Shown here one piece after another: positions 14,804-19,028 of a stretch of 64,000 nt of DNA. Source of the DNA: Nitrospirota bacterium (GTDB lineage: Bacteria; Nitrospirota; UBA9217); NCBI GenBank assembly GCA_963840455.1, contig CAWIYV010000014.1, forward strand, positions 32,001-96,000, written 5' to 3'. Position 1 is the stretch's first letter. The number at the start of each line of letters is the position of its first letter. The translations under genes were made by a program, and so were the position numbers. The notes beneath the pieces are model-generated. The model searched no databases. It worked only from the letters and a program-made list of their open reading frames with translations, and had not been told where the DNA came from.

Positions 14804-15130
14804 ATGGATACCGAACGGGTCAAGCAGTACGAGTGCAAGGTATGCGGCAGACGGATCGATGTGACCAGGGCCGGCGATGTCTACGAAGAGCCGATCTACT
14901 GCTGCGGTGTTCAGTCCGCCGAGGTAGGTGCCCCGGCAATGGTGCCGGCCGCCGCGTCCGCGAAGAAGAAACCGGCGAAGAAAAAAGCAGCGAAGAAGAA
15001 GGCCAAGAAGCCTGCTAAGAAGGCGGCGAAAAAGGCGAAGAAGAAACCGGCGAAGAAAAAGGCCGTGAAGAAGAAAACCGCCAGGAAGAAGACGGCGAAG
15101 AAGAAGGCTGTGAAGAAAAAGAAACGGTAA
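14804..15130 (+). CDS. Desulforedoxin-like metal-binding domain fused to a histone H1-like Lys/Ala tail
   Basis: YECKVCG...IYCCG followed by (KKPAKKKAA)n; AGGAGG RBS; own terminator. Confidence 0.75.
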   Translation: MDTERVKQYECKVCGRRIDVTRAGDVYEEPIYCCGVQSAEVGAPAMVPAAASAKKKPAKKKAAKKKAKKPAKKAAKKAKKKPAKKKAVKKKTARKKTAKKKAVKKKKR

Positions 15131-16578: not shown

Positions 16579-16608
16579 TTGACAATGTCCTGATGAGTGG
16601 AATATAAT
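16579..16608 (+). promoter_or_regulatory. Sigma70 promoter
   Basis: TTGACA-18 bp-TATAAT. Confidence 0.65.
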
Positions 16609-16667: not shown

Positions 16668-17351
16668 ATGGCAGAACGAAAAAAACTGGGAATCCTCCTC
16701 AAGGAGGCCGGCCTGATCGACGAAAACCAGCTCGCGGCTGCGTTGTCGCACCAGCATCACTGGGGCGGAAAGCTCGGCTCCATCATCGCTGAGCTGGGGT
16801 TCACCCGGGAAGAGGACATCGCACGGATCATCTCCGAGACCATGGGGGTCCCCCATGTGAACCTTTTCGAGCCGGAGATATCCCCCGATGTCATCAAGCT
16901 TATCAAGGCGGACATGGCCAAGAAATTCGGCGTCGTCCCGGTCAAGAAGGAGGCCAATGCGCTGACCCTTGCCATGTCGGACCCTTTGGACATCGAGACC
17001 ATGGACAATGTCCGGTTCATCACCGGCCTGACCATCAAGCCGGTCCTGGCCATGGCAGTGGAGATCAAGGACGCCATCCGGAAATACTATGACGGCGAGG
17101 AGGTCACGCGGAAGTCCTCGGACCAATTCCGCGAAACAGCGATGAATGTGGAGATCGTGCGCGAGGTCCCGAACATTGCCACGACGGAATGGAACCAGCA
17201 GACCCAGCAGCAGGACTCCCAATCGCTCCAGCAGGCCATGGCCACCCAGAAGACAGTTCTCGATGCCCTCGTTTCCATCCTCATCGAGAAGGAGATCATA
17301 ACCCGCGGCGAAATCGCGAAGTTCATCGAGCAGAAGAAGTTGGGGCTGTAG
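16668..17351 (+). CDS. Stand-alone MshEN/GSPII_E N-terminal domain protein (putative c-di-GMP receptor)
   Basis: KLGILLKEAGLIDENQLAAALSHQ...KLGSII, LAMSDPLD; no ATPase domain. Confidence 0.8.
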   Translation: MAERKKLGILLKEAGLIDENQLAAALSHQHHWGGKLGSIIAELGFTREEDIARIISETMGVPHVNLFEPEISPDVIKLIKADMAKKFGVVPVKKEANALTLAMSDPLDIETMDNVRFITGLTIKPVLAMAVEIKDAIRKYYDGEEVTRKSSDQFRETAMNVEIVREVPNIATTEWNQQTQQQDSQSLQQAMATQKTVLDALVSILIEKEIITRGEIAKFIEQKKLGL

Positions 17352-17430
17352 GAAGTTCGGAGCGGGACCTGGAGGGGAGCTGTCGGCGTCAGCGTCAGAG
17401 CTGTCCGGGGAGAACAGGGAGAGGAAGCGT

Positions 17431-17847
17431 ATGCACATGAACAAGGTCGGTATTTCGGTGCTCGTCCTGGCAGCGGTAGTGCTCGCCGGGAGCGTCTCCG
17501 CTGGCGAACGCCAGGGACCGAGGATCTCGGTGAAGGACGCCAGGTTCGATTTCGGCATGGTGAGCCAGGGAACTCAAGCCGAGCATATTTTCGAGATCAA
17601 GAACACCGGCGATGAGCTCCTGGAGATCACGCAGATACAACCTACCTGAGGGTGCACGGCGGGGCTGGTCAGTTCGGACCGGCTGGAACCAGGGGCAACG
17701 GCACAGTTGAAGGTCTCCGTGGACACGGCAGGCAGGTCGGGGCACATGACGAAGCATGTGACGATCCGTTCCAACGACCGGGTGACGCCTGCGATACCGG
17801 TGACCGTGATGCTCACGGTGACGGCGGATACAGCGGGCCAGAAGTAG
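17431..17847 (+). CDS. Secreted DUF1573-like Ig-fold protein, probable selenoprotein (TGA at 17647-17649)
   Basis: Signal peptide; FDFG...HIFEIKNTG..LLEI.QIQPT-TGA-GCT..LEPG....V.IRSND; the TGA sits at the first Cys of the xCGCT motif; downstream hairpin. Confidence 0.8.
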
Positions 17848-17981
17848 AAGGCCCGCATGCCCGGGGACGTCCCGGCGGACAACAGGCGGGGAAACGAGGA
17901 GGCCGGCAGAGAAAACTCTGCCGGCCTTTGATGTTTGGCGGCTATGTTCACGCCCGGCCCGAGGATCGGCTGGGGCACGGA

Positions 17982-19028
17982 TCAGGGCTTGTTCGAATCG
18001 GACTGCTGGTCCACTTCAGCGTACACGAGACCGGTGATGTCCCGGATGACCCGGGCGAGGCTCCGGAAGTCGCTCCCCAGCGCGGTGATGCCGAGAAGGA
18101 ACGGCCTCTCGGGGTGATAGATGATGCCGAATTCGTGGAGCTGCAGCACCTCGGAGGGCGCGCCGTCAGCATCCGGTGCTGGGATGATCCGCTCTCCTGC
18201 CTTGCTCGCGAGGCTGACCTCGGGCGGGATGCCCGCGGCCATGCCGTCGCGGAACACCGACCGGGCGAGATAGCGGAGCGCTTTTTCGGACATTTCCTCG
18301 TTCAGGTACGATGCATTGAAGAGGACGCGGAAATAGGAGGCGTAGGCACTGAGCGTCAGCGAATCCTCTTTCTTTTCGGGATCGTAGTTCATATAGAGGT
18401 CCCGGGAGGTCCGGAGCAGATTAGCAGGCGGCATGTTCGCCAGAAGCAGGGCGTAGGCGCTGTTGTCGCCGTAGGCGGTCATCCGGAAGAGAAGCTCGTT
18501 CACCGTATATTCTTTTCCCGGCTCAAGCGGCTTCGGCGATCTCAGGTAGCGCGGCTCGAAGGGCCCGCCGACGCCGCGATAGAAGATCTTCTTTCTGAGG
18601 ACGAGGGGATTGGTCTCGGACCACTTGAAATAGGCGATCAGGAGCGGGATCTTGAGCTGGCTTTCGGGCGAGAACTTCTCGTTCTCCCTGATGCCGAACC
18701 AGTTGCCGTTGTCCAGGTCGCGGAAGTAGACCGAGACCGCCGTTGCCTCGTCGCTGTCGAGCTTTTCCTGGATCAGCGCGTCCACCTTGTAGCGGAACGG
18801 CTTCAGTTCGCGGATCTTGCGCAGGTCGGGGTTCGTCTTGGTGATGATAGGTCGGATAAAGGCGAAGTCCTCACCGGGAGACGAACGCTGGACAATACGT
18901 TCGTTCTGTCCTGCATAGAACAGCCAGGTGCCCCTGCCCAAAAAGATCCCCAGGGCAAAGGCCCCGGCGATCACGACCCAGAGGATCGATCGGTTGATCG
19001 TTATGTTCTTTTTCGGGGTCTTTTCCAT
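17982..19028 (-). CDS. Membrane-anchored class A beta-lactamase-like serine hydrolase
   Basis: N-terminal TM; SVYFRDL; SQLK (SxxK); GDN in place of SDN; SKAG; HEFGIIY. Confidence 0.75.
   Translation of the reverse strand: MEKTPKKNITINRSILWVVIAGAFALGIFLGRGTWLFYAGQNERIVQRSSPGEDFAFIRPIITKTNPDLRKIRELKPFRYKVDALIQEKLDSDEATAVSVYFRDLDNGNWFGIRENEKFSPESQLKIPLLIAYFKWSETNPLVLRKKIFYRGVGGPFEPRYLRSPKPLEPGKEYTVNELLFRMTAYGDNSAYALLLANMPPANLLRTSRDLYMNYDPEKKEDSLTLSAYASYFRVLFNASYLNEEMSEKALRYLARSVFRDGMAAGIPPEVSLASKAGERIIPAPDADGAPSEVLQLHEFGIIYHPERPFLLGITALGSDFRSLARVIRDITGLVYAEVDQQSDSNKP

What the first reader, a model, noticed from the sequence alone, without database searches (positions are those of the whole stretch)
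17431..17847. Hidden exported selenoprotein: DUF1573-like domain with U-G-C motif
Seen: the 72-aa ORF stops at TGA 17647, but the frame continues for 66 codons that complete the domain (GCTAGLVSSDRLEPG...KHVTIRSND). The TGA aligns with the first Cys of the family xCGCT motif. Hairpin gctggtc-AGTTCG-gaccggc (17664-17683) has its loop ~21 nt after the TGA with G at loop position 2, matching the bacterial SECIS model. Inference: a Sec-containing, signal-peptide-bearing Ig-like redox protein that standard annotation would split. I cannot verify whether this family is already catalogued.
Basis: partly seen in the sequence, partly recalled or inferred. Interest (0 to 1): 0.75.

Follow-up and report, generated by a model that had tools for sequence, protein, structure and literature searches.

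The report
Exported DUF1573 selenoprotein, known family
The apparent stop codon in this short gene is very likely read as selenocysteine, giving a 138-residue, probably exported protein of a selenoprotein family listed since 2007; gene fusions in relatives suggest it likely relays electrons for disulfide handling outside the cell membrane.

Summary
Read through TGA 17647, the frame gives a 138-aa protein: signal-peptide-like N-terminus, DUF1573 domain (81 bits, cut-off 26.1), U-G-C motif. The genome has selA, selB, selD and tRNA-Sec. The TGA sits at the same aligned codon in 30 of 30 same-family loci. The hairpin meets all four published bSECIS constraints and has three compensated pairs. All 9 selA-less relatives outside the family that have a homologue carry Cys.

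It is not a new family. DUF1573/OS_HP2 'UGC' selenoproteins have been catalogued since 2007, and this scan found them before on other DNA. This Nitrospirota branch scores below the NCBIfam OS_HP2 cut-off (75 vs 100), and public collections hold the truncated 72-aa product.

Function is inferred. In sister families the domain (Cys or Sec form) is fused to a diheme cytochrome c, and the Cys form usually lies beside dsbA, mostly in genomes without DsbB/VKOR hits. This suggests a periplasmic dithiol relay (about 45%); metal binding is the main rival. This genome lacks the heme module but has an exported Sec-DsbA and a VKOR-like protein.

The parts
17431..17847 (+). Selenoprotein gene, 138 aa with Sec at codon 73 (alternative start ATG 17437), ending at TAG 17845-17847
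17417..17424 (+). Purine-rich ribosome-binding-site-like stretch before the ATG
   Evidence: sequence; function inferred
17431..17502 (+). Predicted general-secretion signal peptide (basic N-region, hydrophobic core, cleavage likely after V-S-A, residue 24); no Tat or lipobox pattern
   Evidence: heuristic (28 of 29 members pass); helix 9-17 at low pLDDT
17524..17787 (+). DUF1573 (PF07610) domain, ASH/PapD-like Ig fold
   Evidence: 81 bits; 2QSV Z 14.3, rmsd 2.0, 102 aligned
17647..17655 (+). U-G-C motif: TGA (Sec73), Gly74, Cys75; Cys75 is the only Cys in the mature protein
17663..17684 (+). Bacterial SECIS-like hairpin: 7 bp plus an outer G-U pair, loop AGUUCG at 17671-17676, 21 nt after the TGA
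17900..17927 (+). 12-bp inverted repeat with a 4-nt loop after the gene, terminator-like
   Evidence: seen in the sequence; not listed by the scan, so only a candidate
16668..17351 (+). Upstream same-strand gene for an MshEN c-di-GMP-binding-motif protein; conserved neighbour, possibly co-transcribed
   Evidence: NF053729 66 bits, cut-off 38; 23 of 24 loci
16579..16608 (+). Perfect sigma-70-type consensus (TTGACA-18-TATAAT) upstream of the MshEN gene
   Evidence: 12 of 12 matches; 1 site found, 0.6 expected at the looser threshold

Best explanation
The gene very likely encodes a 138-residue DUF1573/OS_HP2-type selenoprotein, predicted to be exported, whose U73-G-C75 motif likely works as a reversible selenenyl-sulfide redox shuttle in periplasmic thiol-disulfide handling. 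SHOWN: in-frame TGA at the conserved Cys position, SECIS-model hairpin with covariation, Sec machinery in the genome, Ig-like fold (model), no other Cys in the mature chain. INFERRED (about 97%): SelB reads UGA73 as Sec using the hairpin. INFERRED (about 85%): export through the general secretion route. INFERRED (about 45%): the U-G-C pair cycles between reduced and Se-S bonded states and passes electron pairs between a DsbA-type thioredoxin and an electron sink. In sister families that sink would be the fused diheme cytochrome c. In this family the heme module is absent, so the free domain would hand electrons to a separate acceptor; the VKOR-thioredoxin protein or a separate cytochrome are candidates, and the exported Sec-DsbA is a candidate donor.
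For: Recoding: selA (607 bits), selB (383 bits), selD with its own TGA, tRNA-Sec 66.5 bits. TGA in 30 of 30 loci. Of 35 genomes with the TGA form among 61 searched, 31 have selA; of 11 genomes with only Cys forms, 9 have no selA hit. Compensated pairs. bSECIS model passed by 44 of 52 distinct Nitrospirota TGA sequences against 1 of 18 Nitrospirota Cys and 3 of 74 other-phylum Cys sequences. The genome's selD hairpin has the same 21-nt spacing. Redox relay: DUF1573 is fused to a two-CxxCH cytochrome c in Cys forms and in 9 Sec forms, and those Sec fusions lie in one starred clade with this protein (35 rows, 99/94). A DsbA-like gene abuts or is fused in 8 of 11 Cys-heme loci scanned (6 of the 8 built the profile, L207 and L042 did not). 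Of 28 genomes with the diheme module among 251, 0 have a DsbB hit and 2 a VKOR hit, against 89 of the other 223 with either. This family has the diheme module in 1 of 53 genomes, VKOR-like hits in 40 of 53, and homologues of the genome's exported U-P-H-C DsbA in 28 of 36.
Against: No experiment shows Se in this protein or any redox activity. The window's own gene sits among housekeeping genes (nrdJ-like, ttcA, MshEN, aminotransferase, serA, purA) with no Dsb or cytochrome neighbour. The genome has no close homologue of the diheme module (best E 1.2e-5, single-heme cytochromes; no hit). None of the 9 Sec-heme loci or the 23 same-family orthologue loci scanned has the dsbA neighbour. Lack of DsbB/VKOR is common in the phylum (160 of 251 have neither), including families without the fusion such as f25 (stand-alone Sec form, 0 of 6 VKOR, 0 of 6 DsbB), and kin are not independent. 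The family's VKOR hits are weak (E 4e-9 to 6e-4; this genome 28.5 bits against cut-off 27.5). Four TGA-form genomes (63-96% complete) gave no selA or selB hit; two of them have selD and one has tRNA-Sec. The matched domain of the closest solved structure, 2QSV, lacks the CGC motif.
Confidence: 0.45

Rival explanations
1. It is a real exported selenoprotein, but U-G-C binds a soft metal or metalloid (Cu, Hg, As) as a periplasmic chaperone or scavenger rather than shuttling disulfides.
For: CxC-type pairs bind soft metals (general knowledge). A Cys homologue lies directly upstream of an SO_0444-like Cu/Zn-efflux permease gene (120.7 bits, below the cut-off of 300). A Sec form (L211) lies within 3 kb of ORFs that look like arsenate reductase and Acr3 by their N-termini (names recalled, not scanned). 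Earlier scan notes tie other DUF1573 selenoproteins to arsenic and copper clusters (unchecked).
Against: No metal-resistance gene among the conserved neighbours of 24 same-family loci. The recurring fusion partner in the nearest clades is a diheme cytochrome c, with DsbA beside the Cys forms. No further conserved His, Met or Cys ligand among the invariant columns.
Confidence: 0.27
2. It is a real selenoprotein, but the Se-S bond is a structural or regulatory switch on an Ig-like binding module (adhesion or PapD-like chaperone), perhaps linked to c-di-GMP-controlled surface structures through the upstream MshEN gene.
For: The fold is ASH/PapD-like, shared with non-redox binding domains. Many homologues are tandem Ig repeats with no redox partner domain. 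MshEN is upstream in 23 of 24 loci, behind one perfect promoter consensus.
Against: Sec is kept in 47 of 47 top same-family hits (1 TGA each), which argues for chemistry rather than structure (general knowledge of selenoproteins). Sec forms in other families have unrelated neighbours, so the MshEN link may be plain synteny.
Confidence: 0.2
3. TGA is a true stop or a lineage-wide nonsense mutation, and only a 72-aa fragment is made.
For: The hairpin alone is not significant. Four TGA-form genomes lack selA and selB hits. Translation was not observed.
Against: The downstream half is conserved in frame at 40-93% identity in 29 aligned proteins. The codon is TGA in 30 of 30 loci and never TAA or TAG. 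The hairpin co-varies and is lost in Cys forms. The family is a listed selenoprotein family.
Confidence: 0.03

Closest known systems
DUF1573 domain-containing selenoprotein = OS_HP2 (Zhang and Gladyshev 2007, PMC1976440; listed as pfam07610 with motif UxC in PMC2398784, UGC in PMC9312934 and PMC13188914; NCBIfam NF041425)
   Same: Same Pfam domain, Sec at the first position of U-G-C, Cys homologues at that position, hairpin downstream of the UGA.
   Different: This protein is a single stand-alone domain. The Desulfobacterota TGA forms fetched carry C-terminal extensions of 154-288 aa. It scores 75.3 bits against the NF041425 cut-off of 100. It lies in a Nitrospirota Sec clade drawn apart from the Desulfobacterota clade, though their union is not rejected (p-AU 0.176). 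Its hairpin differs in sequence from theirs.
PDB 2QSV (Porphyromonas gingivalis protein of unknown function) and ASH/PapD-like Ig domains (HYDIN, CEP192, VesB)
   Same: Same beta-sandwich fold: Z 14.3, rmsd 2.0, 102 residues for 2QSV; best Foldseek hit.
   Different: 19% identity; the aligned 2QSV domain has no CGC motif; no Sec.
Erv2p C-terminal CGC shuttle disulfide; DsbA-DsbB and DsbA-VKOR relays (works-like comparison)
   Same: A short CxC dithiol proposed to ferry electrons between a thioredoxin-fold protein and a cofactor-bearing sink. The Erv2p CGC detail is recalled; only the title of Gross et al. 2002 was seen, in a reference list.
   Different: No ERV/FAD domain, no membrane helices, no quinone site; the sink in relatives would be c-type heme; no homology claimed.
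Heme-bearing selenoproteins ExtKL/MccSep (NF040886) and GSU2204 family (listed in PMC13188914; MccSep papers seen as search listings only)
   Same: Exported selenoproteins in which Sec is coupled to c-type heme, as in the fused relatives of this protein.
   Different: The window protein has no CxxCH motif and did not match these models; the fused relatives did not match them either.

Membership tests
DUF1573 'UGC' selenoprotein family as listed in the reviews (PF07610) | PF07610 domain above the gathering score | tested here: met
   81 bits against 26.1
DUF1573 'UGC' selenoprotein family as listed in the reviews (PF07610) | In-frame TGA at the first position of U-G-C, conserved in more than one sequence | tested here: met
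   30 of 30 loci; 5 further genomes
DUF1573 'UGC' selenoprotein family as listed in the reviews (PF07610) | Cys-containing homologues at the aligned position | tested here: met
   54 of 80 loci carry TGC/TGT there, 26 of 80 TGA;
Bacterial selenoprotein gene | bSECIS model: loop 3-9 nt, stem 4-16 bp, G in the first two loop positions, spacing 16-37 nt, MFE <= -7.5 (constraints read in PMC13188914) | tested here: met
   loop 6, stem 8, G at position 2, spacing 21, -13.2 kcal/mol (own implementation; bSECISearch itself not run); covariation
Bacterial selenoprotein gene | selA, selB, selC, selD in the genome | tested here: met
   all above cut-off
Bacterial selenoprotein gene | Selenium present in the protein | not testable with these tools
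   needs 75Se labelling or mass spectrometry
NCBIfam NF041425 OS_HP2_seleno (curated model) | Score at or above 100 bits | tested here: not met
   75.3 bits with C for U. All 29 aligned members match, best E 6.9e-25; a 90.5-bit hit has E 6.6e-26, so none is likely to reach 100. A Desulfobacterota control scores 137.4. Not filed under this model.
Desulfobacterota OS_HP2 clade | Shared Sec origin (one clade with those Sec forms) | tested here: inconclusive
   two separate starred clades on a 100-column tree with a weak backbone; union not rejected, p-AU 0.176
ASH/PapD-like Ig fold | Beta-sandwich matching solved ASH/PapD-like domains | tested here: met
   model pLDDT 85.8; Z 10-14 to 2QSV, VesB, HYDIN, CEP192
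Multiheme cytochrome c selenoproteins (ExtKL/MccSep, GSU2204) | CxxCH heme motifs in the chain | tested here: not met
   none in the 138-aa protein; present only in fused relatives of other families
Periplasmic disulfide relay component (works-like claim) | Thiol-disulfide exchange with a DsbA-type partner | not testable with these tools
   only fusion, neighbourhood and co-occurrence evidence

The most novel reading that the evidence does not exclude
The DUF1573 (U/C)-G-C domain is the shuttle arm of an undescribed DsbB-independent disulfide-generating route in Nitrospirota: DsbA to (U/C)GC to diheme cytochrome c in the fused forms. In this family the heme module is gone, and the free Sec domain links an exported Sec-DsbA (U-P-H-C) to a VKOR-thioredoxin protein, making a two-selenoprotein periplasmic relay. 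The Nitrospirota Sec clade may also have gained Sec independently of the Desulfobacterota OS_HP2 proteins.
Probability: 0.2. Interest if true: 0.65.

Novelty: new member of a known kind. Interest (0 to 1): 0.3.

Why it matters
As a gene call it corrects an annotation error that affects a whole Nitrospirota family: the databases hold a 72-aa stub, and the curated OS_HP2 model does not reach these proteins. The family itself is known but, in the papers I could search, has no assigned function. The fusion to a diheme cytochrome c, the dsbA neighbour and the scarcity of DsbB/VKOR in those genomes give a concrete, testable hypothesis. This small stand-alone Sec domain is a convenient minimal unit for testing it.

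Tried and rejected
Sequence search of the PDB with the single protein: nothing significant; the profile found only 2QSV, E 4e-4. The search for homologous proteins returned 2 hits among 205 candidates, both unnamed; this is expected if relatives are stored truncated, and is no evidence of rarity. Hairpin stability against shuffles: not significant; I relied on covariation instead. A stand-alone partner for the diheme module in this genome: not found by tblastn, HMM or alignment search. A close homologue of the operonic DsbA of the Cys-heme loci: only distant DsbA-like proteins. DsbB in this genome: no hit. Independent origin of Sec in Nitrospirota: suggested by the tree but not shown. My SECIS filter passes only 3 of 25 Desulfobacterota TGA sequences, so it is strict and misses presumably real elements; its failures are no evidence against recoding. 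The hairpin after the TGA of the exported DsbA was not significant against shuffles, and the cytoplasmic-type DsbA TGA failed the filter. RNA-run contigs (X17, X19) cover the TGA region in relatives, but contigs cannot show strand or level and no silent control was laid, so I make no claim of expression. A literature search for the Erv2 CGC detail gave only a reference title. No complex prediction was run. The earlier-findings look-up by sequence returned nothing.

Full report
OBSERVATION. The frame from ATG 17431 stops at TGA 17647-17649 after 72 codons and continues for 65 sense codons to TAG 17845-17847. With TGA=U the product is 138 aa with Sec at 73, in Q-P-T-U-G-C-T-A. It matches Pfam DUF1573 at 81 bits, cut-off 26.1, and NCBIfam OS_HP2_seleno at 75.3 bits, below its cut-off of 100. 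It is the only DUF1573 match in the genome. It meets the four bSECIS constraints given in PMC13188914 (passage read) in my own implementation. That filter passes 27 of 400 TGA ends sampled from 1295 long ORFs of this genome. The fold alone is not beyond dinucleotide shuffles.

IS THE TGA READ AS SEC? The genome (4.03 Mb, 100% complete) has selA and selB side by side on contig C7, selD with its own TGA, and a tRNA-Sec, all above cut-off. Among 61 genomes searched, 47 matched the protein. The 30 best loci, from 30 genomes of this family, all have TGA at the aligned codon followed by G-C. Twenty further regions showed 5 more genomes with the TGA form and 11 genomes with Cys forms only. Against the selA search of the same 61 genomes, 31 of 35 TGA genomes have selA and 9 of 11 Cys-only genomes have no selA hit. 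The four exceptions (63-96% complete) also gave no selB hit; two have selD and one has tRNA-Sec. Since selA and selB are adjacent here, one assembly gap could remove both, but this was not shown. In the 57-nt alignment of 30 loci, three stem pairs change on both sides (G-C/C-G, A-U/G-C, U-A/C-G), two of them with amino-acid changes; the covariation score is 0.373 against 0.196 for shuffles and at most 0.129 for slid partners. Related sequences inflate such scores, as the tool warns. A scan of the GTDB collection kept 80 of 396 confirmed loci: 26 with TGA, all titled Nitrospirota-type and partly the same sequences as, and 54 with Cys. The hairpin window folds at -8.5 to -13.0 kcal/mol in the TGA loci and 0 to -8.0 in the Cys loci; many Cys loci are AT-richer, which lowers that contrast. 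The filter passes 44 of 52 Nitrospirota TGA, 1 of 18 Nitrospirota Cys, 3 of 74 other Cys, and only 3 of 25 Desulfobacterota TGA sequences. Contigs from 4 of 4 public runs laid on 17600-17730 show no other letter in the codon (one may be the source sample). I put recoding at about 97%.

WHAT THE PROTEIN IS. An N-terminal basic-then-hydrophobic segment passes a simple signal-peptide heuristic in 28 of 29 aligned members, and none has a Cys outside the motif in the mature part (one of the 30 loci, without a clear ATG, was left out of the alignment). The model (mean pLDDT 85.8) is a beta-sandwich with U73 in the turn between strands 64-71 and 75-79. Its best structural match is 2QSV, then VesB, HYDIN and CEP192 ASH/PapD-like domains; the matched 2QSV domain lacks CGC. 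The 72-aa stub is in public collections, in a cluster of 18 members, which confirms the annotation problem. The gene sits in a conserved housekeeping block: aminotransferase and serA in 24 of 24 loci, MshEN in 23, ttcA and purA-like in 21, nrdJ-like in 20 (purA and nrdJ names recalled from sequence).

HOW IT MAY WORK. The neighbourhood says little; the relatives say more. In families f2, f5, f8 and f20 of the phylum, the Cys form is fused to a domain with two CxxCH motifs. A DsbA-like gene abuts or is fused to it in 8 of 11 such loci among 68 loci scanned (6 of the 8 built the profile). Of 20 further regions that I chose partly for longer open frames, 9 hold Sec forms with the same diheme fusion and the same hairpin loop; none of the 9 has the dsbA neighbour. 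On a tree of 108 domains (100 columns, Sec/Cys column masked; 24 of 76 other-phylum rows and 17 of 36 same-family rows kept, 3 duplicates dropped), this protein, its family and those Sec fusions fall in one starred clade of 35 rows, apart from a starred Desulfobacterota clade of 29. Forcing the two together is not rejected (p-AU 0.176). In a sample of 251 phylum genomes the diheme module occurs in 28, but in 1 of 53 of this family. Of the 28, none has a DsbB hit and 2 have a VKOR hit, against 89 of the remaining 223 with either. This is suggestive only: 160 of 251 have neither, and kin are not independent. This genome has no diheme module and no DsbB hit, but has a weak VKOR-thioredoxin protein and an exported DsbA-like selenoprotein with U-P-H-C, the latter matched in 28 of 36 same-family genomes. 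I therefore commit, at about 45%, to a periplasmic U-G-C redox shuttle in thiol-disulfide handling. Rivals are metal binding (27%), a structural or switch role on an Ig binding module (20%), and a true stop (3%). No partner is shown for this protein.

COMPARISON WITH WHAT IS KNOWN. OS_HP2 was reported as a new selenoprotein family in Zhang and Gladyshev 2007 (PMC1976440, passages read), tied to pfam07610 with motif UxC in PMC2398784 (passages), and is listed as 'DUF1573 domain-containing protein, UGC' in PMC9312934 and PMC13188914 (table passages). The protein meets that family definition. It does not reach the NCBIfam cut-off, so I do not file it under NF041425. In 251 genomes of the Desulfobacterota-type phylum, 95 matched that model and 16 passed its cut-off. 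The term DUF1573 occurs in the main text of 4 papers of the library. Searches for DUF1573 with cytochrome c, and for selenoprotein with CxxCH/UGC/fusion, showed no paper on the heme fusion or a function. The library misses most subscription papers. BSepDB (PMC13326102, passages) has no DUF1573 in its main text, but its supplementary family table and database were not seen and may hold these genes; Haft and Tolstoy 2025 was not read. PMC8124441 and PMC3401233 were read as passages for side questions; the MccSep papers were seen as listings only. Earlier notes of this scan report the same family, and the diheme fusion, on other DNA; I had found both before that call.

VERDICT. Interest 0.3; the bold reading (a DsbB-independent, heme- or VKOR-coupled selenium relay) has probability about 0.2 and would deserve about 0.65.

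Noticed in passing
G000 C9:389438-389532 (L063): A second tRNA-Sec-like sequence with a UCA anticodon (Rfam RF01852 52.9 bits, above the cut-off of 47) but a mismatched cloverleaf and no CCA end. It lies just downstream of a LysR-like ORF and upstream of a DsrE-like ORF (Pfam 21.9 bits, below cut-off) and a YedF-like ORF (name recalled). It may be a degenerate selC or a tRNA-like leader element. The canonical selC is C1:311722-311820.
   Followed up: partly
G000 C8:26521-27108 + (L217:1231-1818): DsbA-like gene with a signal-peptide-like N-terminus and an in-frame TGA giving U-P-H-C, between an NrfD-like gene and a cytochrome c peroxidase-like gene (names recalled). Homologues in 28 of 36 same-family genomes, nearly all with one TGA.
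   Followed up: partly
G000 C9:185737-186306 - (L216): DsbA/FrnE-like gene with in-frame TGA (D-Y-I-U-P-Y-C) and no signal peptide; resembles the listed DxxUP DsbA-like selenoprotein form. No hairpin passed my filter.
   Followed up: partly
G000 C10:380905-381828 - (L219): VKOR-like membrane domain (28.5 bits, just over cut-off) followed by a C-K-H-C thioredoxin-like part; weak VKOR hits in 40 of 53 same-family genomes.
   Followed up: partly
L196-L204: Nine Nitrospirota genes in which the U-G-C domain is fused to a two-CxxCH cytochrome c, with the same SECIS loop. An earlier scan note reports this form on other DNA.
   Followed up: yes
L042:3546-4415: Cys-form DUF1573 plus diheme cytochrome c running on in frame into the start of a DsbA-like domain (C-G-H-C); cut by the contig end.
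   Followed up: partly
L209, L210: DUF1573-like domains with a C-x-x-C variant (CKAC, CRRC) in place of CGC, in clusters of ABC-transporter and NosL-like genes (names recalled).
   Followed up: no
L051-L053: A second, divergent Sec paralogue in some same-family genomes; two of the three lie head-to-head with a rhodanese-like ORF (name recalled). Not found in G000.
   Followed up: partly
window 17982-19025 -: Beta-lactamase2 (PF13354) family gene, far below class A cut-offs; a variable insert present in 6 of 24 same-family loci.
   Followed up: partly
window 14804-15130 +: Small ORF with an N-terminal CxxC...CC motif and a long Lys/Ala-rich histone-like tail, between the nrdJ-like gene and ttcA.
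   Followed up: no
G000 C14:252688: selD itself carries an in-frame TGA with a hairpin at the same 21-nt spacing as the finding.
   Followed up: yes
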